Source: a phage. Taken from it: a stretch of 64,000 nt of DNA. The notes beneath the pieces are model-generated. The model did not search any database. It was given only the letters and a program-made list of their open reading frames with translations, and was not told where the DNA came from. The translations under genes and the position numbers were made by a program. Location of the stretch: assembly GCA_014913405.1 (NCBI GenBank), contig GCA_014913405.1_3931.1; one strand, given 5' to 3'. Positions 1,052 to 11,574 of the stretch are shown here, one piece after another (the stretch's first letter is position 1; each line of letters opens with the position of its first letter).

Positions 1052-1600
1052 ATGAAGAAATTGATTCTAGGCTTGTGCTTAATGTTTACAGCACACTTAT
1101 CTTATGCAGTTGACTGCCCAGAGCTATCAATTAGCCAAAAAGTTAACATGTTAAAAGCTTACCAGTATGGTGAGAATAATATGGGGAAAGGCTGGGGTAT
1201 TACTCTAGCAGCTATAGCCTTACAAGAGTCAGAGTTAGGTCTGAAGGTAGAGAATAAAAAGACCCACGACTATGGTATTTTCCAGAATCACTTGAAGACT
1301 GTTGTAAAGCGTAACAAAATTAGTCCTAATGTGGCTAAAAAGAAACTCTTAAAAGATTTTGACTATGCAGCAAAAGAGACACATAAAGAGCTTGAGTTTT
1401 GGACTAAGGTACATGGTCACCCGAAGTCAAAGAAGACTTTACAAAAAGTTTTAGCATCATATAATGCTGGGTATTCGTACAAAATCCCTAAAGCTAAGAA
1501 ATACTCTCAAGATGTCTATAACAATATGAAAGTTATCGCTCAATGTGAATTTGCAACAAACATTTCTAAGGTAAATCATGAAAAAATTAAGAAAGTCTGA
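1052..1600 (+). CDS. Secreted lytic transglycosylase (SLT domain), candidate endolysin or virion muralytic enzyme
   Basis: N-terminal signal peptide; E-S catalytic motif (ALQESELG), YGIFQ, SYNAGY motifs. Confidence 0.55.
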   Translation: MKKLILGLCLMFTAHLSYAVDCPELSISQKVNMLKAYQYGENNMGKGWGITLAAIALQESELGLKVENKKTHDYGIFQNHLKTVVKRNKISPNVAKKKLLKDFDYAAKETHKELEFWTKVHGHPKSKKTLQKVLASYNAGYSYKIPKAKKYSQDVYNNMKVIAQCEFATNISKVNHEKIKKV

Positions 1601-2273
1601 TGAAGTCCTGTGCCATGCTTATGACTTGCATCCTCATGAGTTAGGTCTTGATTCCTGTGTATGGACTCCAGAACAGTGCAGGGATTTTGAAGACACTGCA
1701 AGAGAAGTTGTATGTTCACTTGAAGATTTTCACACATCAGAACCAATTGTGAACGTTGTGGACAAAGAGACTGGACAAGCTATAGGTGTAAGGCGTGATA
1801 GTTTAGTCATAGTCAATAAAGACCTTGTAGAAAAAGGTAACCTCATCTTAGCAGATATTGATGGTGTTCTTACAAATTTTAATCACGAAGATTGCTCAAC
1901 GGAATTGACTGATGGGTCATTCTCACAGTACACTAATCTTCTTGACTCTGTAAGAGCAAAACCAACGTATGTTTTTAGTATTATTGATGCAATTGCTAAT
2001 CATGCTGCCATTGGACTCTTGACAGCGAGAGGTGAATCTCAGAGAATACCTACTGAGATGTTTTTAAGGCATAACATAGAGCATGATTACATGCTTTTTA
2101 TGCGTGGTTTTGGAACTAACTCTATAAGTGCAGAAAGTTTAAAAGTGAGGATGATTCAGTCTTGCATTCTTCCTTATTTTAATATAGTATGCTTTATAGA
2201 AGATACAGAGAAGAATGTTCAGAAGGTAAACAGAATCCTTCCACACATTAAAACCATGTTAGTTAAACATTGA
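1578..2273 (+). CDS. Hypothetical protein with HAD-like DxDG motif (ILADIDGVLT)
   Basis: ORF with RBS; HAD motif I-like sequence, but located mid-protein. Confidence 0.35.
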   Translation: MKKLRKSDEVLCHAYDLHPHELGLDSCVWTPEQCRDFEDTAREVVCSLEDFHTSEPIVNVVDKETGQAIGVRRDSLVIVNKDLVEKGNLILADIDGVLTNFNHEDCSTELTDGSFSQYTNLLDSVRAKPTYVFSIIDAIANHAAIGLLTARGESQRIPTEMFLRHNIEHDYMLFMRGFGTNSISAESLKVRMIQSCILPYFNIVCFIEDTEKNVQKVNRILPHIKTMLVKH

Positions 2274-2801: not shown

Positions 2802-3149
2802 ATGACATTTAAAGAGTTCTGTCAAGCTACTTTCATAATTGTTTTCTTAGTTGGGGCAGGTGTCTGGGGAGGATACTCTTACAGAGACTACCAAGTTGCT
2901 GAAGCTGAGTTAAGCAATGAGAAACTAATAAGTGTTGCTAAAGATGCTTATCAGGAAGGTTTAGCCACACTGAGCACCAATTACAAAAATGATTTGAAAG
3001 ATGTGCTTGCTAAGAATAAGCATACAAAAGAGGTACTAACATATGAAAAAACTAAGCCAGAGTTTTATAATGTTTGTGTTACTGATAATTATGTCAGGGT
3101 GTTCAACGAACAAAGTGAACAGTACATTCAAAAACTCCCAAGTAAGTGA
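2802..3149 (+). CDS. i-spanin-like protein (N-terminal TM helix, periplasmic helical region)
   Basis: TM segment FIIVFLVGAGVWGGY; overlaps downstream lipoprotein ORF in another frame. Confidence 0.4.
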   Translation: MTFKEFCQATFIIVFLVGAGVWGGYSYRDYQVAEAELSNEKLISVAKDAYQEGLATLSTNYKNDLKDVLAKNKHTKEVLTYEKTKPEFYNVCVTDNYVRVFNEQSEQYIQKLPSK

Positions 3150-3312
3150 GAGTGACAAGTACACTCAAGAAGAGTCAAGATTCACTGTCAAAGGTAATAC
3201 TGGTAGTGATGTGGCAGCAGCCCTTGAGTTTTATCGTGATGGTTTTTACCAGTGCACAATCAAAGCTAATAACCTTATTGATATGATTTTATTAGGAAAT
3301 AAACAGCAATGA
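3043..3312 (+). CDS. o-spanin-like outer-membrane lipoprotein
   Basis: Signal peptide with lipobox-like IMSGC; begins inside the 3' end of the preceding gene in +1 frame. Confidence 0.4.
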   Translation: MKKLSQSFIMFVLLIIMSGCSTNKVNSTFKNSQVSESDKYTQEESRFTVKGNTGSDVAAALEFYRDGFYQCTIKANNLIDMILLGNKQQ

Positions 3313-3578
3313 CAGAGAATGAAGATACTTTTTACGTAGAGGGTTACTTACTGTTACCACGACCAAAAGAAACTTATATGCGAATTGACTTCTTACCAAC
3401 CATTATGGATAATGTGATGTGTCATATCTTTATGCAAGGTGTCACAGCACAGCTTAAGCACGTTGGTAAAGAGTGCAAAATAAAGGTTGACACTCATCCA
3501 GAAATCAAAGAGAATCACTACACATGGTTCTTACCAGACTCTAAAGAAATCTTAGCAGTTCTCAAAACGAGGAAATGA
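3309..3578 (+). CDS. Hypothetical protein
   Basis: ORF, overlapping stop/start coupling. Confidence 0.45.
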   Translation: MTENEDTFYVEGYLLLPRPKETYMRIDFLPTIMDNVMCHIFMQGVTAQLKHVGKECKIKVDTHPEIKENHYTWFLPDSKEILAVLKTRK

Positions 3579-3889
3579 TTATGCAATTCCAGCCAACAAA
3601 TCGTGGATTTTCTTATGCAGAATTTAAAGATGCTAAAGGGGAAATTTGTACTTTACAAGAGAGTTCATCATATGAACCATGTATTTGGTTAGGTGCTAAA
3701 GAGGTCTCTGTTCAGTACCTAGATGGTGGCTGGAAAACACTTGATATCCCAGCATTAGTAGGCAAAGATTTTGTAGGTAACCAAAGAATGAAACTCAACC
3801 AAGAACAGGTGAAAGAGTTATTGCCATACCTTCAGTACTTTGCTGAAAATGGTGAATTACCAACAGAGGAACTTACAAATGCAGATTAA
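3575..3889 (+). CDS. Hypothetical protein
   Basis: ORF, translationally coupled. Confidence 0.45.
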   Translation: MIMQFQPTNRGFSYAEFKDAKGEICTLQESSSYEPCIWLGAKEVSVQYLDGGWKTLDIPALVGKDFVGNQRMKLNQEQVKELLPYLQYFAENGELPTEELTNAD

Positions 3890-4205
3890 TGGAAGAGACT
3901 TTGTAGCCGTTTACTACGAGAAAGATAAAGAAGTTGGCGTAGCACAAGTATCTTATGGTAATGGTAAGTGGTTGTATGGGACAATCGCAGTAGTCGGAAC
4001 AAGAAGTGATACAAAAACTTTTAAAGATTGTGTTGACCTTCTTGAAGAATCCATCCACAATCATTGGTGTCTGATATGGATGACTGACAACGAAGTGATA
4101 GAACGCTTCAAAAAGATTGGTATCAACATTGATAGTATTGAGCATGTTGATTTATATGAGCTAACTGAGAAGGTAAACTATGAAAGTAATACTAGCCAGA
4201 GATAA
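3840..4205 (+). CDS. Hypothetical protein
   Basis: ORF. Confidence 0.4.
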   Translation: MLKMVNYQQRNLQMQINGRDFVAVYYEKDKEVGVAQVSYGNGKWLYGTIAVVGTRSDTKTFKDCVDLLEESIHNHWCLIWMTDNEVIERFKKIGINIDSIEHVDLYELTEKVNYESNTSQR

Positions 4206-4413
4206 AAAGACACGTAAGATTGTAAGTTCAGCAGTATTCAAAGGGAGACATGAAGTCGTCCCGTTTACAGGAGAAGGTGTGTTAACTTACAAGAAGGTGA
4301 TGAAACGTGAGTGCAGTAACCATTTCCGTGACTTCTTCTCTGAACCATTAGGAGACTTTAAAAGTCGCTGTGGTAAAGGCATCATCACTCAAGAGGTAAT
4401 TATTCATGGCTGA
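4180..4413 (+). CDS. Hypothetical protein
   Basis: ORF. Confidence 0.35.
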   Translation: MKVILARDKKTRKIVSSAVFKGRHEVVPFTGEGVLTYKKVMKRECSNHFRDFFSEPLGDFKSRCGKGIITQEVIIHG

Positions 4414-4606
4414 CTTCTGCAAAGACTGTGCTATCGAAATGTTCGGACGTGATACAGGTGACTTAAAAGGTCTTATCACTGAAGATGACTTTAAAGCTGG
4501 CTATGCAATGCCAGTAATCTGTGAAGGTTGTGGATGTATCTGGGTAGACCATGAGGGGCAACGTGTAAAACCTTCAGAAGATAAAGAATCTTGGGAGAGA
4601 TGTTAA
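4406..4606 (+). CDS. Small Cys-rich (zinc-ribbon-like) protein
   Basis: CxxC...CxGC motifs. Confidence 0.4.
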   Translation: MADFCKDCAIEMFGRDTGDLKGLITEDDFKAGYAMPVICEGCGCIWVDHEGQRVKPSEDKESWERC

Positions 4607-5386
4607 ATGGGTATTGTAAAAGTTGTGAAAGGTAACTTACTAGCTGCCTTCAAAAACACAGACATTGAGTTAATTGCTCATGGTTGCAACTGCCGTAACC
4701 TCATGGGTGCTGGAATCGCTCAAAAAATTGCTAAGATTTTCCCAAAAGCTGAAGAAGCTGACCGGAAATTCCATAAAAAGTTTGGCTACAGCGCTCATGA
4801 TATCGGATACCAGATGATTGGTGAGGTGTCACATGCTCGAACGGAGTATGGTTACATTTTTAACCTATATACACAGTTGGATGTTGGGAAGTGTGCATCA
4901 TACCGATACTTAGTGGAGTCACTAGAAAAACTCCGTAAATTTTGCTGGATGCACAACATTCGTAAGATTGGTTTACCCATGATTGGTGCAGGTATCGGTG
5001 GTTTAGACGCACAAGCTGTGAAAAGCCTCATTAATAGCGTTATGTACAACGTTGATGTGTACCTATACGTCTATGATGAAGCAATGGCAACTGTAGTTAC
5101 CCCTAAGTATGCCACCTCAGCACCACAATTCTATGATGGTGTCGTGCTAAGTGACGGTAAGTCTAACCATGTTACCCTCTATCAGCTTGTTGATGGTAAG
5201 GTCGAGGCTAGTTACCCTCTGGTTAGTGAGATGGGTATGTGTAATAGTGAAATGTTCTCAATTGACCCGTTTGGTAGATACGAAGGGGTGTTCTTTGATA
5301 GCTACCCAGCAGCATACATCTACACAACAAATCAGGATGAAGTTCACTACTTGCTGTATTCTAAAAAGTTCAAATTCATAAACTAA
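4607..5386 (+). CDS. Macro-domain protein (ADP-ribose binding/hydrolase fold) with C-terminal extension
   Basis: GNLLAAF...IAHGCNCRNLMGAGIAQKI and IGLPMIGAGIGGL match macro-domain signature regions. Confidence 0.6.
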   Translation: MGIVKVVKGNLLAAFKNTDIELIAHGCNCRNLMGAGIAQKIAKIFPKAEEADRKFHKKFGYSAHDIGYQMIGEVSHARTEYGYIFNLYTQLDVGKCASYRYLVESLEKLRKFCWMHNIRKIGLPMIGAGIGGLDAQAVKSLINSVMYNVDVYLYVYDEAMATVVTPKYATSAPQFYDGVVLSDGKSNHVTLYQLVDGKVEASYPLVSEMGMCNSEMFSIDPFGRYEGVFFDSYPAAYIYTTNQDEVHYLLYSKKFKFIN

Positions 5387-5421
5387 TTAGTGCTTCACAG
5401 CACCTATAATTAATCTAAGAA

Positions 5422-5465
5422 GGCCGCCTAACCCATTGAAAAATTTAAGGTAAGGCAGCCTTTTT
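5422..5465 (+). terminator. Probable terminator after macro-domain gene
   Basis: GGCCGCC...GGCAGCC stem followed by T5. Confidence 0.4.
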
Positions 5466-5622
5466 CATTTTCAATTTGTGCAGGTAGCTGTATAGGTCTG
5501 CACAGGTGTCTCAAAAAATCTCATCGCCGGATAGAAAAATCATTTTCAAAACGTGCAGACTCCGCTCAGGTCGGGCAAGAAAAATCATTTTAGAATTGTG
5601 CAGGTAGGTTTTTATGGGGAGC

Positions 5623-5664
5623 CAGACCAACCCCTCTCCCCCTATTACTCCCCCTCTCCCCAAA
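5623..5664. repeat. C-rich direct repeat (CCCCTCTCCCC x2)
   Basis: Seen directly; unusual in AT-rich context. Confidence 0.8.
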
Positions 5665-5816
5665 AGTCAAGAGAAAAATTTGTAGCGGATTGAAAAATAA
5701 TTCTTGATTTGTGTTCTGTTTTGTGGTAGTCGTGTGCGCACGTTTCATTACAGTTTTTCCAAAAATATTTTTAAAATTTTTCTTGACTCTTTGAACGGGG
5801 TTATCTAGTATTTGCA

Positions 5817-5874
5817 TCAACGGGGAGGGAATGACCTTCCCCACTAAATAAAGTCCTAAACTGGAGATTCAAAA
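5817..5874 (+). repeat. Class A leader cassette (ACGGGGAGGGAATGACCTTCCCCACT hairpin + conserved RBS leader)
   Basis: Near-identical copies at 7376, 8239, 9463, 10940, 11267. Confidence 0.8.
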
Positions 5875-6258
5875 ATGGCATACCGTGCACCTAAATTCAT
5901 CAACAAAGACAACTTTCGCAACGCACTGGAGAAGTCACTTGATGAGAATTTTAAAGGTAACGTTATTGTTGTTCACTCATTTAATTTCAAGTATGATATC
6001 AATGGGAATAAAATCAACCATTACACGGCAACAATGCTAGATGGTACTCTTTCAAGTGAAAAAGCCATTTTACATGCACTTGCTGGACGTGGTAAAAACC
6101 TGATAAGATGCGATAAGAGACGTTATCAGGGTGGCGCATATGGTTACGATGATGCTGTTTATCATCTTGAAAATATGGGCTATCAAGTAGAAAAAGCTGG
6201 AGTGTCTCAAATAATTGGTAGTGATGGTTACGTAACTATCTTCAAAATTAACAAATAA
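5875..6258 (+). CDS. Small early-type protein, hypothetical
   Basis: Conserved leader with AGGAG-like SD before ATG. Confidence 0.6.
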   Translation: MAYRAPKFINKDNFRNALEKSLDENFKGNVIVVHSFNFKYDINGNKINHYTATMLDGTLSSEKAILHALAGRGKNLIRCDKRRYQGGAYGYDDAVYHLENMGYQVEKAGVSQIIGSDGYVTIFKINK

Positions 6259-6343
6259 AGTACTTTACAGGGGGCTTATAGTTCGATAAAGTAAGCCCCA
6301 GATAAAGAGCTTTACCACTAAATCCTAAATTGGAGATTCAAAA
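6258..6343 (+). repeat. Class B leader cassette (GGGGCTTA-loop-TAAGCCCC hairpin + conserved RBS leader)
   Basis: Copies at 6637, 7706, 8502, 9773; stems conserved, loops vary. Confidence 0.8.
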
Positions 6344-6634
6344 ATGGCTACTATCAAAAACGTTGTAATCCCTGTAAAAACTCGTGATGACGCTCGCATC
6401 ATGGCGAAAAAGTTAGGCGGGAAAGTGGTTGACAACGGAAAACAATCTGCTGTAAGATGGGGTGTGAAGGCTGATAAACAGTTGAAGTTAAAAAATTCAC
6501 CAATAAATCTTTTTACATGTGTAAACACTATCGGAAAGACAAATGTATACACGAAAAAGGCATATATTAGACGCGTAGCCTTAACATCTCCAATTCGTAC
6601 AATGAGAAGTCATGCAAAGCTGAAAATTAACTGA
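6344..6634 (+). CDS. Small early-type protein, hypothetical
   Basis: Conserved leader/RBS. Confidence 0.6.
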   Translation: MATIKNVVIPVKTRDDARIMAKKLGGKVVDNGKQSAVRWGVKADKQLKLKNSPINLFTCVNTIGKTNVYTKKAYIRRVALTSPIRTMRSHAKLKIN

Positions 6635-6636
6635 TA

Positions 6637-6722
6637 AAGTACTTTACAAGGGGCTTAAAAGTTGATACCTTAAGCCCCAGATAAAGAGCTTTACCACTAA
6701 ATCCTAAACTGGAGATTCAAAA
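6637..6722 (+). repeat. Class B leader cassette
   Basis: Hairpin GGGGCTTAAAAGTTGATACCTTAAGCCCC + conserved leader. Confidence 0.8.
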
Positions 6723-7019
6723 ATGAAATTATCAAATAAAGTTCGTGAAAATCTAAGCAAATTACTCAACAAAATTGATTTCATTGAAACATCAAGAAAT
6801 AGCCATGATGTTATGGAATGGTTACACGGCAAAATAAAAGGTCGTCGTGTAGTGATTTGCTTATGGAATAGTTGCAGGGAGTATAAAAAACCTGTATTGC
6901 AAGTCAATATCTATGATGATAATCTTAAAAGTCCTGTCAAATCTAAAAGCGATTTACTAGATTCTTATGAGATAACTGTAAATGGCAAAGTGTCACGTAA
7001 AGAGGAAGCACCATGTTAA
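6723..7019 (+). CDS. Small early-type protein, hypothetical
   Basis: Conserved leader/RBS. Confidence 0.6.
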   Translation: MKLSNKVRENLSKLLNKIDFIETSRNSHDVMEWLHGKIKGRRVVICLWNSCREYKKPVLQVNIYDDNLKSPVKSKSDLLDSYEITVNGKVSRKEEAPC

Positions 7020-7345
7020 TGACTGGTATCACTGCAATCATTGCCATTTTCGCGCTCTATAAGGCATATAAAGCCTATAATCTAGCAAATAAGGCAATCA
7101 CACAACAGGTTAGTAATAGCCTTGTAATGAGCTTTCTAGAGCGGTTGAGCGATGAACAATTAAAGCGGTTAGAAATGAGCTTCAGATTCAGGGCGAGAAC
7201 TTATCAAATCAGCGACATTTTCAAAGATGATTTTCAATTAGTCGATGATTATAATTCTCTGATAAATGCTTTAAATATTAGTGACTTAAAAGACTATCAT
7301 ACTGTAATTGTTCAAGAGTTGAGCAAACGAAAACAAAACTGTTGA
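7013..7345 (+). CDS. Small protein, hypothetical (coupled to upstream gene)
   Basis: ORF overlapping upstream stop. Confidence 0.5.
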   Translation: MLMTGITAIIAIFALYKAYKAYNLANKAITQQVSNSLVMSFLERLSDEQLKRLEMSFRFRARTYQISDIFKDDFQLVDDYNSLINALNISDLKDYHTVIVQELSKRKQNC

Positions 7346-7370
7346 CACTGATTTTTAGATAGATTAAATT
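7342..7370 (+). promoter_or_regulatory. Sigma70-like promoter (TTGACA-17-TAAATT)
   Basis: Identical element repeated at 8205-8233. Confidence 0.55.
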
Positions 7371-7375
7371 ACTCA

Positions 7376-7433
7376 TCAACGGGGAGCAATAATCTCCCCC
7401 ACTAAATAAAGTCCTTAAACTAGGAGATTCAAA
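7376..7433 (+). repeat. Class A leader cassette
   Basis: Variant hairpin GGGGAGCAATAATCTCCCCC with compensatory changes. Confidence 0.8.
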
Positions 7434-7706
7434 ATGTATACTACTAACAACGGTCGCACTTTAAATGTCACTCTACGTCACTATGTCGACGGTGTGATGC
7501 ACTTTGAGGATTTACAGGCTGAGCAACATATCTTAAATTGGCAAGTCGCAGGACTCCAAAAAACTGCTACCGGATACGGCAAAAAGATTCCAACTAGTTG
7601 GAAAGTATACTATGAAGGACGTTTGCGCAGAATTTATCAGGATGTATGTGGCAATAGCACATCAAGTTACATCATAGTAAAAGGTAAAAAACTGCATTTA
7701 GTATAA
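7434..7706 (+). CDS. Small early-type protein, hypothetical
   Basis: Conserved leader/RBS. Confidence 0.6.
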   Translation: MYTTNNGRTLNVTLRHYVDGVMHFEDLQAEQHILNWQVAGLQKTATGYGKKIPTSWKVYYEGRLRRIYQDVCGNSTSSYIIVKGKKLHLV

Positions 7707-7791
7707 AGTACTTTACAGGGGGCTTATTAGTCTGTACAGTAAGCCCCAGATAAAGAGCTTTACTACTCAATCCTAAATTGGAGATTCTAAA
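7706..7791 (+). repeat. Class B leader cassette
   Basis: Hairpin + conserved leader. Confidence 0.8.
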
Positions 7792-8196
7792 ATGGCTATT
7801 AATAATCGTGAGATGTCAATCTTAAAAGCACGTTTAACCGTTAATCGAATCAATGTTATTACATCATCAGCACCGGATGAAACATTGCACAACATTATCG
7901 GAAAGATTCAAAGCGTTATCTTAGACGTTGAAAACGTAAAAAACTCATTGGCTGACGTTGCAGCAGGTATCACGCTAGACGGTGCACAATATGAAATGGC
8001 CGACATGTTAGGCAAATCTAAGGTAATGAATAAAGAGCTTGATTTAAAAATGTTTAGATTTGCCGTGAAAGTGTGGCTATCTGTTGAGTATGATGCTAAT
8101 TTTGCAATCGCTGATTTCTTTGCCACTTGGTTACAACGTAATTTGGCAAATCATGACTTTCGTGACATCTGCGACGCAATTTATGCAGAACTCTAA
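7792..8196 (+). CDS. Small early-type protein, hypothetical
   Basis: Conserved leader/RBS. Confidence 0.6.
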   Translation: MAINNREMSILKARLTVNRINVITSSAPDETLHNIIGKIQSVILDVENVKNSLADVAAGITLDGAQYEMADMLGKSKVMNKELDLKMFRFAVKVWLSVEYDANFAIADFFATWLQRNLANHDFRDICDAIYAEL

Positions 8197-8204
8197 AAAT
8201 TTTA

Positions 8205-8233
8205 TTGACACTGATTTTTAGATAGATTAAATT
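8205..8233 (+). promoter_or_regulatory. Sigma70-like promoter (TTGACA-17-TAAATT)
   Basis: Duplicate of 7342-7370 element. Confidence 0.55.
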
Positions 8234-8238
8234 ACACA

Positions 8239-8297
8239 TCAACGGGGAGGGAATGACCTTCCCCACTAAGTAAAGTCCTTAAACTAGGAGATTCAAA
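8239..8297 (+). repeat. Class A leader cassette
   Basis: Hairpin + conserved leader. Confidence 0.8.
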
Positions 8298-8495
8298 ATG
8301 GCTATTATCAACGGTTTAACCATTGAAACCACGCACATCAAAGACATTAAAGTTGGTGATGTAGTTCTTTCCCACGGCGTAGAAAAAACAGTCACTGCAA
8401 AGGATATCAAAGATGATTCTTTCATGGGTAGAACTCTCTTCGGTGATTCTTATTGCTTAGGTTATCTTGCAGTTTTAAAAGTTGTCAAAAATTAA
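8298..8495 (+). CDS. Small early-type protein, hypothetical
   Basis: Conserved leader/RBS. Confidence 0.55.
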   Translation: MAIINGLTIETTHIKDIKVGDVVLSHGVEKTVTAKDIKDDSFMGRTLFGDSYCLGYLAVLKVVKN

Positions 8496-8501
8496 CTGAT
8501 A

Positions 8502-8588
8502 AAGTACTTTACAAGGGGCTTATAGTTCGATAAAGTAAGCCCCAGATAAAGAGCTTTACCACTAAATCCTTAAACTAGGAGATTCAAA
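8502..8588 (+). repeat. Class B leader cassette
   Basis: Hairpin + conserved leader. Confidence 0.8.
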
Positions 8589-9131
8589 ATGAAATGCTTT
8601 CACGGTACTACTCAAGAAAACTTTATCAACCTGATTAATAACGGTGATAAACCATCAGGTGTATGGAATTGTTCGGATATGGACGGCAATTTTTACGTGT
8701 ACCCAGAAAATAAACTCTATGGTGATGATGAGGAAGAGATAGCATCGGAAGGTATCCAGCAAGCTCTAGGAAATGCCACTATCACGGCAGCTTTTCAGAT
8801 GAAAACTCAAAATATTGTTATCTTAGAACTTGACATTCCAGAGGATGAGCTGAATGATGATTATTCTTGTGATAACATGTCAAATATAGCAAGCTTTACA
8901 GAGTACTTTGATGTAAATTGGATTAAAAAGGTCTATACAACAGAGTTCAACGCTATGTATTCACCTTTTTGTCTCCCTTCACTGGATAACCCAAATTTAA
9001 ATTATCTTGATGAAACATTGGAGCTACTTGCTAAAAGTATCCAACAATCCGACAGTATTCAGGTTTTTTGTGACATCATGGATACACTGACAGAAAACAT
9101 TGTAGAGAGTGATTTAAAGGTCTTTTTCTAA
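8589..9131 (+). CDS. Strongly acidic small protein (D/E-rich), hypothetical; DNA-mimic candidate
   Basis: Conserved leader; roughly 35 D/E versus about 9 K/R by eye. Confidence 0.6.
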   Translation: MKCFHGTTQENFINLINNGDKPSGVWNCSDMDGNFYVYPENKLYGDDEEEIASEGIQQALGNATITAAFQMKTQNIVILELDIPEDELNDDYSCDNMSNIASFTEYFDVNWIKKVYTTEFNAMYSPFCLPSLDNPNLNYLDETLELLAKSIQQSDSIQVFCDIMDTLTENIVESDLKVFF

Positions 9132-9197
9132 AAACCTATACATTCACCTTATAAACACTGATTAACCCCTTACAGGGGCTTTTAGAGGGCTTAAATC

Positions 9198-9431
9198 ATG
9201 CTTACAACCATTTATCTCATCCTTTCCATTTGTAACGGCCATTCATGTGACTTTAAAGGGCTTGAAGAGTTTACAGGAAGTAAAGAAAATGCTATTCAAG
9301 TTTGCCAGATAGCAAGACAAGACTACCCCGCCAGTGATGATATACAATGTTACTTTAAGACAGAAGATGACGAAGGAATCTATTTCGACAGTGTCGATGG
9401 TCAATATGAAATTATCATTGAAAAAGACTAG
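9198..9431 (+). CDS. Small acidic protein, hypothetical
   Basis: ORF with RBS; D/E-rich. Confidence 0.5.
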   Translation: MLTTIYLILSICNGHSCDFKGLEEFTGSKENAIQVCQIARQDYPASDDIQCYFKTEDDEGIYFDSVDGQYEIIIEKD

Positions 9432-9462
9432 ACAAGCCTGATAAAAGTCTGTAAATTATCAA

Positions 9463-9524
9463 TCAACGGGGAGGGAATGACCTTCCCCACTAAGTAAAGT
9501 CCTTAAACTAGGAGATTCCAAAAA
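9463..9524 (+). repeat. Class A leader cassette
   Basis: Hairpin + conserved leader. Confidence 0.8.
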
Positions 9525-9773
9525 ATGTATACTAAAACTCAACTAAAAAACATGGTTAGCAATGGCTTAATGGATGAAGTCTATAAAGAGTGTAGACGCT
9601 ACGGGGAAATTAAGGATAAGACTAGTTATGAGTATACCCACACAATAGACTTTAAAACCAATGAGAAGAGGACTGACCTTGTTACTGTAGTAGTGATTGA
9701 GTATAAACGAATTATTTGGACCTTTGAGCTAGTAAAAGGTGAGTGCACAGAGATAGAATATAAAGACGCTTAA
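9525..9773 (+). CDS. Small early-type protein, hypothetical
   Basis: Conserved leader/RBS. Confidence 0.6.
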   Translation: MYTKTQLKNMVSNGLMDEVYKECRRYGEIKDKTSYEYTHTIDFKTNEKRTDLVTVVVIEYKRIIWTFELVKGECTEIEYKDA

Positions 9774-9858
9774 AGTACTTTACATGGGGCTTATTAGTCT
9801 GTATAGTAAGCCCCAGATAAAGAGCTTTACCACTCAATCCTAAACTGGAGATTCTAAA
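9773..9858 (+). repeat. Class B leader cassette
   Basis: Hairpin + conserved leader. Confidence 0.8.
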
Positions 9859-10200
9859 ATGGCTTATGTAACCGTAATTACCGATAAAGCTGGCTCATCT
9901 TGGTCAACTCAAGTAAGTGATAAGATGTCACCTATGCAGTGCCTAAAATACTTTGAACAGTGGAACAAAGGCGAGGGTGTAAGCCCCTTTCAAGTGATGC
10001 AAATCATCCATACAGATAACGAAGGGAATAAAACGACCTTGAACAGTGAATACTACGCAAGCCGTTTTGAAACGAGAAGTAAAACAATGAAGCTTTTACG
10101 TGAATCCGGCTATTCTCATATTGCCGCGCTAATCTGGGATGACCTGCTAAAAAGTCAGCGTATCAGCTATGTAAAGCCTGAAAAAATCTTTATAAGCTAA
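9859..10200 (+). CDS. Small early-type protein, hypothetical
   Basis: Conserved leader/RBS. Confidence 0.6.
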   Translation: MAYVTVITDKAGSSWSTQVSDKMSPMQCLKYFEQWNKGEGVSPFQVMQIIHTDNEGNKTTLNSEYYASRFETRSKTMKLLRESGYSHIAALIWDDLLKSQRISYVKPEKIFIS

Positions 10201-10236
10201 TCAATGACTTATAAAAAACTTTAAAAATTATCTTGA

Positions 10237-10262
10237 CAATACCCCTTGACATTGGTAACTTT
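10237..10262 (+). promoter_or_regulatory. Promoter-like element with tandem TTGACA hexamers
   Basis: TTGACAATACCCCTTGACATTGG; same tandem-hexamer architecture as 20701 and 63200. Confidence 0.4.
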
Positions 10263-10400
10263 GTTCGAGGGGGTTTATCTAAAAGGGATTCACTTAAAAG
10301 ATTCTTTATAGATAAGCTTAAAAAATTGCTTGCAATCATCTTCCAAAAACTTTATAGTTTATCTCAAGCAATAATGCTTTCCTAAACTGGAGATTCAAAA

Positions 10401-10931
10401 ATGAACAAGTTCAAAGCTATCAACTACATTCGCTCAAATAGTGTCATGTCTAAGCCTGTTAAGGATACCTACGAATTTCGTTGCAATGGGGTGCATTTTG
10501 CAACAATTACCAAATCAGAAAACGGGGCTTATTACATTCATCGCCGTAATGTTTCAACCGTGGTAGTCTCTCACTTTATGCAAGCTGTCGCGGAACTTCT
10601 CCCGCTGTTTTTAGGTCTTTACTTGGATGAGTGTAAAAACGTTCACAGCCACGTTAAAAACATTTTAAACAGTTATAAAATGGCTTATGAACGTTCTATT
10701 CATAATTTGAACAAGTTCTATAAAGCCCCTGAAAATACTGTGTCAATAGCTTATGATGTAAGCGGTGAAATGGTCAATCTCTCCAATGTAGAACAAATTG
10801 GCCTTTATGATTTACGTCCTAGCGGTTATTCTAAGACTCTCGGTGAAGGCTTATCCTTCAATATCAAGAACTTAGAAAAAATTTTAAGAGAAATTGAAAA
10901 AGATATTGACGAGACAATCAAAAATCTGTAA
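10401..10931 (+). CDS. Small early-type protein, hypothetical
   Basis: Conserved CCTAAACTGGAGATTCAAAA leader before ATG. Confidence 0.6.
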   Translation: MNKFKAINYIRSNSVMSKPVKDTYEFRCNGVHFATITKSENGAYYIHRRNVSTVVVSHFMQAVAELLPLFLGLYLDECKNVHSHVKNILNSYKMAYERSIHNLNKFYKAPENTVSIAYDVSGEMVNLSNVEQIGLYDLRPSGYSKTLGEGLSFNIKNLEKILREIEKDIDETIKNL

Positions 10932-10939
10932 ATTGTCAA

Positions 10940-10994
10940 TCAACGGGGGGGTAACCTGCCCCACTAAACAAAATCCTAAACTGGAGTTATCAAG
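10940..10994 (+). repeat. Class A leader cassette (variant hairpin GGGGGGGTAACCTGCCCC)
   Basis: Compensatory stem changes. Confidence 0.75.
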
Positions 10995-11258
10995 ATGGAA
11001 AACGTAGAATTAACCACACTATTGCAGATTGCAACTGACAAAGAAGACGTAGCGTTGTTTCACCGTATCGAAAGTGATTTGTTCAATGGTGAAATCATTA
11101 AAGAGTCTTACGAGGTTGTCGGATTCAAAGATGGTAAAGCATTTGGCTTTTTTGACCTCGACAAAAGCAAAGCGGTTACAATGTACGATGTTCTATCTTG
11201 TGAAATTCTGACAAAATACAACGAAAAAAGGCTTGCAACCTACGCCAATATGCAGTAA
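10995..11258 (+). CDS. Small early-type protein, hypothetical
   Basis: Conserved leader/RBS. Confidence 0.6.
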   Translation: MENVELTTLLQIATDKEDVALFHRIESDLFNGEIIKESYEVVGFKDGKAFGFFDLDKSKAVTMYDVLSCEILTKYNEKRLATYANMQ

Positions 11259-11266
11259 ATTACTAA

Positions 11267-11325
11267 TCAACGGGGAGGGAATGACCTTCCCACTAAACAA
11301 AGTCCTAAACTGGAGAATCTAAATT
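11267..11325 (+). repeat. Class A leader cassette
   Basis: Hairpin + conserved leader. Confidence 0.8.
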
Positions 11326-11574
11326 ATGTCAACTATCCGCGTAACTGTTAATGCTTATGGCTGCCACCAACTTGATGCAAAATTCGATATCGGTGGAACA
11401 GATAACACCTTTGACCTTATCAAAATGCTGATTCAGCAGGTGATACCAGATTATAACCCTACTGATGACTTCTGGAAAGATGCCGTAAAAGAAGCCATAA
11501 ACGAGGAATCTCACTACCATTATTGGGGTGACTTGATTGTCTCTCTGTACTACAGCAAACAAGGTTACAACTAA
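11326..11574 (+). CDS. Small early-type protein, hypothetical
   Basis: Conserved leader/RBS. Confidence 0.6.
   Translation: MSTIRVTVNAYGCHQLDAKFDIGGTDNTFDLIKMLIQQVIPDYNPTDDFWKDAVKEAINEESHYHYWGDLIVSLYYSKQGYN

What the first reader, a model, noticed from the sequence alone, without database searches (positions are those of the whole stretch)
4607..5386. Phage-encoded macro-domain protein
The N-terminal 170 aa carry macro-domain signature regions. Macro domains bind or hydrolyse ADP-ribose derivatives, so a phage copy is a plausible counter to host ADP-ribosylation-based defences or NAD-derived signalling. It is followed by a terminator and directly precedes the small-gene array.
Basis: partly seen in the sequence, partly recalled or inferred. 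Interest (0 to 1): 0.55.

Follow-up and report, generated by a model that had tools for sequence, protein, structure and literature searches.

The report
Phage anti-DarT macrodomain protein (AdfM-like)
This Felix O1-like phage gene encodes a real macro-domain enzyme related to phage T4's Tk.4/AdfM, so it most likely strips ADP-ribose off phage DNA to defeat the bacterial DarTG2 defence; it is a new member of a recently recognised family, with an extra tail domain of unknown function.

Summary
The ORF at 4607-5386 (+, 259 aa) is real, and residues 1-~162 are a genuine macro domain. It scores above the Pfam Macro cut-off, and an AlphaFold model (pLDDT 92) superposes on TARG1, DarG and Poa1p. The window comes from a Felixounavirus.

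The protein falls in PHROG 335, labelled "phosphatase". That family also holds T4 Tk.4 (33% identity, E 1e-22), which a 2025 preprint named AdfM after showing genetically that it counters DarTG2.

The active site is not DarG-like in one respect. The catalytic lysine (DarG K80, TARG1 K84) is replaced by an invariant glutamine (Q90, motif NLYTQ). Streptomyces SCO6735, a proven ADP-ribosyl-thymidine DNA hydrolase, has the same substitution.

My best explanation is an orphan antitoxin-like DNA de-ADP-ribosylase acting against DarT2. This rests on homology and was not tested here.

Two features go beyond the known family. Residues ~163-259 form a fast-evolving beta-rich domain with no detectable relatives outside the Felixounavirus and related phage proteins that carry it fused to this macro domain. 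The gene is also a replacement hotspot: 42% identity between alleles, inside flanks that are 92-94% identical.

A terminator-like hairpin follows the gene. The small-gene array begins about 400-490 bp downstream, not immediately.

This is a new member of a known kind, of moderate interest.

The parts
4607..5386 (+). Complete CDS, 259 aa: a two-domain macro-domain protein (AdfM-like)
   Evidence: ORF list. PHROG 335 at E 1.5e-84 over aa 1-258. 97% identical to the annotated 'phosphatase' of Escherichia phage EcoM2.
4607..5092 (+). Macro domain, aa 1-162, of the ALC1-like class (TARG1 / DarG / SCO6735 / Poa1p)
   Evidence: Pfam Macro above its cut-off. PADLOC DarG at 2e-16 and NCBIfam DarG at 2.5e-15, macro part only. 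PDB profile hits. Foldseek TMt 0.77-0.86.
4679..4690 (+). Codons for H25-G26-C27-N28, the ADP-ribose pocket motif 'HGCN'
   Evidence: H25, G26 and N28 are invariant in 35 homologues. N28 aligns with PhiKZ AdfM N23, which the authors equate with T. aquaticus DarG N22. H25 aligns with Poa1p H23 and with the H of the SCO6735 H-V-C-N motif.
4862..4876 (+). Codons for N86-L-Y-T-Q90; Gln90 occupies the position of the catalytic Lys of TARG1 (K84) and DarG (K80)
   Evidence: N86, L87 and Q90 are invariant; Y88 and T89 are nearly so. The profile alignment places NLYTQ on TARG1 YLITK. The same NLYTQ motif occurs in T4 Tk.4 and in the HY02 allele. SCO6735 has Gln85 at this position and the Q85A mutant is inactive (PMC9411070).
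4976..5002 (+). Codons for P124-M-I-G-A-G-I-G-G132, the glycine-rich phosphate-binding loop
   Evidence: P124, G127, G129, I130 and G132 are invariant. G132 aligns with TARG1 D125, so the TARG1 Lys/Asp dyad is absent.
5093..5383 (+). C-terminal domain, aa 163-259: six beta strands plus a terminal helix, orphan fold, function unknown
4593..4599 (+). Ribosome-binding site GGGAGAG, 7-9 nt upstream of the ATG; the upstream ORF's stop (4604-4606) abuts the start codon
   Evidence: Read directly from the sequence.
5417..5472 (+). Intrinsic-terminator-like hairpin (arms 5422-5433 and 5448-5459) followed by TTTTTCATTTTC
   Evidence: RNA fold: MFE -25.7 kcal/mol for 5384-5480, z -4.07, and 0 of 200 shuffles fold as well.

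Best explanation
The gene encodes an orphan, antitoxin-like ADP-ribosyl glycohydrolase of the phage AdfM (T4 Tk.4) family. It sits at the end of a co-directional gene run that includes rIIB and a polynucleotide kinase. I propose that its macro domain binds the ADP-ribose that a host DarT2-type toxin attaches to thymidines in single-stranded phage DNA, and hydrolyses the N-glycosidic bond, which restores replication and transcription. Catalysis would follow the SCO6735 route (Gln90 positioning the distal ribose, with an activated water) and not the lysine route of DarG and TARG1. The appended C-terminal domain is not needed for this chemistry, because T4 Tk.4 lacks it. It probably adds a partner-binding or targeting function. 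What is shown here: the fold, the family membership, the active-site residues, the lack of a neighbouring toxin, and the allelic turnover. What is inferred: the substrate, the defence system targeted, and any role of the C-terminal domain.
For: The macro fold and family are established. The best defence-library and NCBIfam matches are DarG, covering the macro part only. The protein shares PHROG 335 with T4 Tk.4. Pairwise identity is 33% at E 1e-22 over aa 3-160, with shared IAHGCNC, FNLYTQ and IGAGIG motifs. T4 tk.4 (adfM) is the single hit in a DarTG2 transposon screen, and its deletion sensitises T4. A second macrodomain AdfM, in chimalliviruses, removes DarT2 ADP-ribose from DNA in vitro (PMC13309987). 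The Gln-type active site is proven competent for ADP-ribosyl-thymidine DNA hydrolysis in SCO6735, where Q85A is dead (PMC9411070), and our H-x-C-N and N-x3-Q spacing match it. No ADP-ribosyltransferase or toxin is encoded among the ten flanking ORFs scanned on the + strand, which fits an orphan antitoxin. Flanks are 92-94% identical between phages while the protein is 42% identical, as expected for a gene under arms-race turnover. The family occurs in 2826 of 50,697 phage records.
Against: No activity or phenotype was measured for this protein or for any Felixounavirus homologue, and I found no paper linking DarTG to Ounavirinae experimentally. The T4 evidence is a preprint and is genetic only. 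The protein fails the DarG equivalog cut-off (56.6 bits against 250), lacks the DarG C-terminal domain and lacks the catalytic lysine. SCO6735 also removes ADP-ribose from proteins, so a Gln-type site does not fix the substrate. The N-terminal motif is equally close to yeast Poa1p, an ADP-ribose-1''-phosphate phosphatase.
Confidence: 0.65

Rival explanations
1. It is a catalytically active macro domain whose relevant substrate is not DarT2-modified DNA. Candidates are ADP-ribosylated proteins or RNA (from host ADP-ribosyltransferase toxins or defences), or small metabolites such as O-acetyl-ADP-ribose or ADP-ribose-1''-phosphate. The last of these is what the database label 'phosphatase' implies.
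For: The closest solved relatives include TARG1/OARD1 (a protein and O-acetyl-ADP-ribose hydrolase) and Poa1p (an ADP-ribose-1''-phosphate phosphatase). Poa1p gives the best N-terminal match: E 1e-5 with the motif H-S-C-N-C. SCO6735 is active on protein as well as DNA. A polynucleotide kinase lies 2.3 kb upstream, which could hint at RNA-end metabolism. The T4 annotation reads 'contains A1pp phosphatase motif'.
Against: The only phenotype known for a member of this PHROG is anti-DarTG2. The 'phosphatase' label is inherited from the old A1pp domain name, not from an assay. The TARG1 Lys/Asp dyad is absent. No phage ADP-ribosyltransferase or 2'-phosphotransferase was seen near the gene.
Confidence: 0.2
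2. It is a non-catalytic or weakly catalytic ADP-ribose binder. It would act as a sponge or decoy for NAD-derived immune signals (for example His-ADPR of type II Thoeris, whose effector senses the signal with a macro domain), or it would bind and occlude an ADP-ribosylated target.
For: The canonical catalytic lysine is missing. Macro domains can be pure readers. Type II Thoeris uses a macro domain as its signal receptor (10.64898/2026.06.04.730250). The C-terminal domain could support oligomerisation, as in known sponges (inference only).
Against: Gln at this position is catalytically essential, not a sign of inactivation, in SCO6735. H25, N28, Q90 and the Gly loop are invariant across 35 homologues, as expected for an enzyme. 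The T4 homologue's phenotype is specific to a DNA-modifying system. There is no evidence for signal binding.
Confidence: 0.07

Closest known systems
Phage T4 Tk.4 = AdfM (anti-DarT factor, macrodomain); PHROG 335
   Same: Same PHROG (1.5e-84 for our protein, 1.3e-65 for Tk.4). 33% identity over the whole macro domain at E 1e-22. Identical signature motifs IAHGCNC, FNLYTQ and IGAGIG, including Gln at the catalytic-Lys position. Both are stand-alone phage genes with no adjacent toxin.
   Different: T4 Tk.4 is 155 aa with a macro domain only. This protein carries an extra ~97-aa C-terminal domain. It comes from a different phage subfamily (Ounavirinae, against Tevenvirinae) and a different genomic neighbourhood.
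Streptomyces coelicolor SCO6735 (PDB 5E3B), an ADP-ribosyl-thymidine DNA hydrolase
   Same: ALC1-like class macro domain. Gln replaces the catalytic Lys, and an H-x-C-N motif is present with the same N-x3-Q spacing. SCO6735 has proven activity on DarT-modified ssDNA, and its Q85A mutant is inactive.
   Different: SCO6735 is a bacterial chromosomal gene under DNA-damage control. Sequence similarity is low: E 4e-12 for the family profile, and E 0.028 for residues 1-102 alone. SCO6735 has no C-terminal domain. Its long lysine-bearing mobile loop is not obviously conserved here.
DarG2 antitoxin of DarTG2 (T. aquaticus PDB 5M31/5M3E; M. tuberculosis 5M3I)
   Same: Best match in the defence-system (PADLOC) and NCBIfam libraries. 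Fold TMt is 0.80-0.85. The Asn (N28 = N22) and a GxGxGGLD-type loop are conserved.
   Different: The catalytic K80 is replaced by Gln. The score is far below the equivalog cut-off (56.6 against 250). There is no DarT-binding C-terminal domain and no darT neighbour.
Chimallivirus AdfM (PhiKZ gp104)
   Same: A phage-encoded stand-alone macrodomain that counters DarTG2. The equivalent Asn is conserved.
   Different: Only 23% identity at E 9e-5. It is Lys-type (K78), and it is imported into the phage nucleus. Our protein is Gln-type and comes from a phage of a group not known to form a nucleus.
Human TARG1/OARD1 and yeast Poa1p
   Same: Top sequence and structure hits in the PDB. H25 matches TARG1 H32 and Poa1p H23.
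   Different: The TARG1 K84/D125 dyad is absent (Q90 and G132 in our protein). These are eukaryotic proteins acting on protein or small-molecule substrates.

Membership tests
Macro domain superfamily (Pfam PF01661) | Score above the Pfam gathering threshold | tested here: met
   29.6 bits against a cut-off of 22, E 7e-7, profile positions 2-116 of 118.
Macro domain superfamily (Pfam PF01661) | Three-layer alpha/beta/alpha macro fold | tested here: met
   AlphaFold2 pLDDT 92. Foldseek probability 1.0 and TMt up to 0.86 to solved macro domains.
ALC1-like class (TARG1 / DarG / SCO6735 / Poa1p) | Closest relatives by sequence and structure belong to this class, not to the MacroD or viral classes | tested here: met
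   The top 15 Foldseek hits and the top 14 profile hits are TARG1, DarG, Poa1p, SCO6735 or BT1257-type proteins. Alphavirus macro domains score far lower.
DarG2 antitoxin (NCBIfam NF048014 equivalog) | Whole-protein score above the curated cut-off | tested here: not met
   56.6 bits against a cut-off of 250. Only profile positions 2-153 of 338 are matched.
DarG2 antitoxin (NCBIfam NF048014 equivalog) | Catalytic lysine (K80 in T. aquaticus DarG) | tested here: not met
   An invariant Gln90 occupies this position. The equivalence of K80, K84 and Q85 is taken from PMC9411070.
DarG2 antitoxin (NCBIfam NF048014 equivalog) | C-terminal DarT-binding domain and an adjacent darT gene | tested here: not met
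   The C-terminal domain has no match to the DarG models beyond the macro part. None of the ten flanking ORFs scanned carries an ADP-ribosyltransferase domain.
T4 Tk.4 / AdfM family (PHROG 335) | Significant full-length match to the family profile and to T4 Tk.4, with shared motifs | tested here: met
   PHROG 335 at E 1.5e-84. T4 Tk.4 falls in the same PHROG. BLASTP gives 33% identity at E 1e-22. NLYTQ and HGCNC are shared.
T4 Tk.4 / AdfM family (PHROG 335) | Confers resistance to DarTG2 | not testable with these tools
   Shown genetically for T4 only. No data exist for Felixounaviruses.
SCO6735-type (Gln) ADP-ribosyl-DNA hydrolases | Gln at the catalytic position together with an H-x-C-N motif | tested here: met
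   Q90 corresponds to Q85 through the TARG1 register and the N-x3-Q spacing. HGCN corresponds to HVCN.
SCO6735-type (Gln) ADP-ribosyl-DNA hydrolases | Hydrolysis of thymidine-linked ADP-ribose on ssDNA | not testable with these tools
   A biochemical assay is required.
TARG1 | Lys84/Asp125 catalytic dyad | tested here: not met
   Q90 and G132 occupy these positions in the profile alignment.
Poa1p ADP-ribose-1''-phosphate phosphatase (the origin of the 'phosphatase' label) | Phosphatase activity on ADP-ribose-1''-phosphate | not testable with these tools
   Only the N-terminal similarity (E 1e-5, aa 4-60) and the fold similarity (TMt 0.77-0.79) were seen.

The most novel reading that the evidence does not exclude
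The fast-evolving C-terminal domain, found only in this phage lineage, may be a second, non-enzymatic counter-defence module. It could bind and block DarT2, or tether the enzyme to the replication fork or to ssDNA. That would make this protein a two-mode anti-DarT factor that converges on the architecture of full-length DarG (hydrolase plus toxin binder) using an unrelated fold. The sharp allelic replacement at this locus would then reflect matching to different host DarT2 variants.
Probability: 0.2. Interest if true: 0.55.

Novelty: new member of a known kind. Interest (0 to 1): 0.36.

Why it matters
If the assignment is right, it extends the newly described macrodomain anti-DarT factors from T-even and nucleus-forming jumbo phages to the Felix O1 group, which is widely used in Salmonella and E. 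coli typing, biocontrol and therapy. It would predict that these phages are intrinsically resistant to DarTG2.

The analysis also shows that the enterobacterial-phage branch of the family, including T4's own AdfM, uses the SCO6735-type glutamine active site and not the DarG lysine. That matters for mechanism and for choosing the right inactive-mutant controls.

The orphan C-terminal domain and the allele turnover give a concrete handle for asking how specificity evolves in enzymatic counter-defences.

The database label 'phosphatase' on thousands of phage genes is probably misleading.

Tried and rejected
- **C-terminal domain, Pfam:** no hit.
- **AlphaFold-database Foldseek library:** not available on the machine.
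- **C-terminal domain against the direct DarT inhibitor AdfA (T4 gp61.2):** hhalign found no similarity.
- **Fusion of a T4 tk.4 neighbour:** tested against tk, tk.1, tk.2, tk.3, vs, vs.1 and rI.1, with no similarity.
- **Acidic DNA mimic (like the DarG C-terminal domain) or basic DNA binder:** domain pI ranges from 4.7 to 10.0 across homologues, so neither is a conserved property.
- **Neighbouring toxin or ADP-ribosyltransferase:** none found among the ten flanking ORFs scanned.
- **Literature on Felixounavirus macro genes:** PhageMaP on Bas63 and HIDEN-SEQ say nothing about them. A DarTG-plus-Ounavirinae search found only papers on DNA polymerase swapping. The original DarTG phage-defence paper is not held.
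- **Rfam on the downstream gap:** nothing.
- **Pairwise alignment to PhiKZ gp104:** it places K78 one residue away from Q90. I treat this as an ungapped-alignment register slip, because the T-K / T-Q register is unambiguous against TARG1.

Full report
**Observation.** The window carries an ATG-to-TAA ORF at 4607..5386 on the + strand, 259 aa. A GGAG ribosome-binding site lies 9 nt upstream, and the stop codon of the preceding 66-aa ORF abuts the start codon.

Pfam Macro (PF01661) matches residues 25-140 at 29.6 bits against a gathering score of 22. A profile built from 35 homologues hits human TARG1/OARD1 at E 3e-17, and the M. tuberculosis and T. aquaticus DarG macrodomains at about 1e-15. 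An AlphaFold2 model built on that alignment is confident (pLDDT 92, pTM 0.88). Its best Foldseek matches in the PDB are TARG1, DarG and Poa1p, with target-normalised TM-scores of 0.77-0.86. The macro-domain observation is therefore confirmed. The domain ends at about residue 162.

**Where it comes from.** The region is 90-96% identical at the DNA level to Felixounavirus genomes (Escherichia phage EcoM2, Salmonella phage BPS17L1 and others). In those records the gene is annotated variously as 'phosphatase', 'macro domain-containing protein' or 'hypothetical protein'.

The + strand cluster upstream holds rIIB, a polynucleotide kinase, the spanins and several small ORFs of unknown function. None of the ten flanking ORFs scanned carries an ADP-ribosyltransferase or a toxin domain.

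**Family.** The whole protein matches PHROG 335 at E 1.5e-84. A tblastn search finds the macro domain in 2826 of 50,697 phage records, including many T-even phages where the hit is gene tk.4.

T4 Tk.4 itself falls in PHROG 335. It aligns to our protein at 33% identity over residues 3-160 (E 1e-22) and shares the motifs IAHGCNC, FNLYTQ and IGAGIG. A 2025 preprint found tk.4 to be the single T4 gene that becomes conditionally essential on DarTG2-expressing E. coli. The authors confirmed this with a clean knockout and renamed the gene adfM (10.1101/2025.11.20.689424).

Independently, a DarG2-like macrodomain of nucleus-forming phages (PhiKZ gp104, also named AdfM) was shown to remove DarT2 ADP-ribose from DNA and to be needed on DarTG2 hosts (PMC13309987). 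Our protein is only distantly related to that one: 23% identity, E 9e-5. In the defence-system (PADLOC) and NCBIfam libraries its best match is DarG, but only over the macro part and far below the equivalog cut-off.

**Active site.** Across the 35 homologues, the invariant residues include H25, G26, N28, N86, L87, Q90, P124, G127, G129, I130 and G132.
- N28 aligns with PhiKZ N23, which the authors equate with T. aquaticus DarG N22.
- The profile alignment puts NLYTQ on TARG1 YLITK, so Gln90 sits where TARG1 has K84 and DarG has K80. TARG1 D125 is replaced by G132.
- This does not signal inactivation. Streptomyces SCO6735 has Gln85 at this position, efficiently hydrolyses thymidine-linked ADP-ribose on ssDNA, protects against DarT, and is inactivated by Q85A (PMC9411070).
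- Our protein shares with SCO6735 the H-x-C-N motif and the N-x3-Q spacing.
- T4 Tk.4 also has NLYTQ.

So the genetically validated T4 AdfM and this protein belong to a glutamine-type branch, while PhiKZ AdfM and DarG are lysine-type.

**Mechanism proposed.** From these results I infer that the protein is an orphan antitoxin-like DNA ADP-ribosyl glycohydrolase. It would remove DarT2-type modifications from phage DNA, using the water-activating, Gln-assisted chemistry proposed for SCO6735.

The fold, the family, the residues, the absence of a cognate toxin and the relationship to T4 AdfM are shown. The substrate and the defence system countered are inferred by homology. My confidence is about 0.65.

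The main rival (about 0.2) is that the relevant substrate is protein- or RNA-linked ADP-ribose or a small ADP-ribose metabolite. In its favour, TARG1 and Poa1p are equally close relatives, and SCO6735 also acts on protein. A non-catalytic binder or sponge for NAD-derived signals is unlikely given the invariant catalytic-type residues (about 0.07).

**C-terminal domain.** Residues ~163-259 form a separate beta-rich domain: six strands and a helix, with pLDDT 82 when modelled alone.
- A profile search of 1.84 billion representative proteins found 11 proteins at E <= 0.001. Five are macro-fused proteins, two are short fragments, and four are weak multi-stretch matches that I read as spurious.
- Only 257 phage records cover at least 80% of the protein. 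The ones listed are Escherichia, Salmonella and Shigella phages with genomes of about 86-90 kb, the size of Felixounavirus genomes.
- The domain evolves much faster than the macro domain: 9-29% identity to the window copy across the non-identical homologues, and 22% against 51% between the window and HY02-type alleles.
- Its pI ranges from 4.7 to 10.0, so it is neither a conserved DNA mimic nor a conserved DNA binder.
- It is unrelated to AdfA and to the neighbours of T4 tk.4.

Its function is unknown. A variable partner-binding role is the most attractive guess.

**Allelic turnover.** Only 13 phage records carry a gene at least 90% identical to this one. Other Felixounavirus-type records that cover the whole protein have alleles at about 39-42% identity, and in phage HY02 the gene occupies the same position. 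Against HY02, the flanks are 92.3% (3100-4749) and 94.5% (5540-6694) identical at the DNA level. The neighbouring proteins are 98.5% and 92.9% identical, but the macro proteins are only 42% identical. This is a sharply bounded replacement, which is typical of counter-defence loci.

**Downstream.** A 490-bp gap follows. It contains three copies of TCATTTTNNAANNGTGCAG, which occurs nowhere else in the window, and has no Rfam match. The small-gene array starts with a promoter, hairpin and Shine-Dalgarno cassette at about 5783, and that cassette recurs before at least eight genes up to about 11,330.

**Verdict.** The gene is a new, two-domain member of the recently defined AdfM family of anti-DarT macrodomains. 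It is not a new kind of system. The glutamine-type active site, the orphan C-terminal domain and the allele replacement are the points worth following up.

Noticed in passing
window 5465-5603: Three direct copies of TCATTTTNNAANNGTGCAG (5465, 5540, 5585), with an inverted GTCTGCAC at about 5497. They occur only in the 490-bp gap after the macro gene (0.32 expected by chance) and have no Rfam match. They could be operator- or promoter-like sites.
   Followed up: partly
window 5783-11330: A ~70-100-nt cassette is repeated before at least eight small + strand genes. It consists of a TTGACA..TAAATT promoter, the hairpin ACGGGGAGGGAATGACCTTCCCC, and the leader TCCTAAACTGGAGATTCAAAAATG.
   Followed up: partly
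window 4750-5540 (compared with L004, phage HY02): Sharply bounded allelic replacement. Flanks are 92-94% identical at the nucleotide level and neighbouring proteins are 93-98% identical, but the macro protein is 42% identical. The window-type allele is present at 90% identity or more in only 13 phage records.
   Followed up: yes
window 4406-4606: A 66-aa ORF with two CxxC pairs (CKDC ... CEGC), zinc-ribbon-like, whose stop codon abuts the macro gene's ATG. It falls in PHROG 2210 (unknown function) and is 98.5% conserved in HY02. A functional link to the macro protein was not tested.
   Followed up: no
window 5632-5662: A C-rich tract with CCCCTCTCCCC repeated twice, unusual in this AT-rich phage. 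It lies inside a spurious-looking minus-strand ORF (5590-5844) that is annotated as a CDS in EcoM2.
   Followed up: no
window 1578-2273: A polynucleotide kinase homologue (PHROG 3970, E 1e-134) lies in the same co-directional cluster, downstream of rIIB (31-951) and a weak SLT-like ORF (1052-1600).
   Followed up: partly
L003 6923-7390 (T4 tk.4) and L005 22518-23006 (PhiKZ gp104): The two proteins published under the name AdfM differ at the catalytic position: T4 Tk.4 has Gln (NLYTQ) and PhiKZ gp104 has Lys (FPTK). Neither source paper appears to comment on this.
   Followed up: partly
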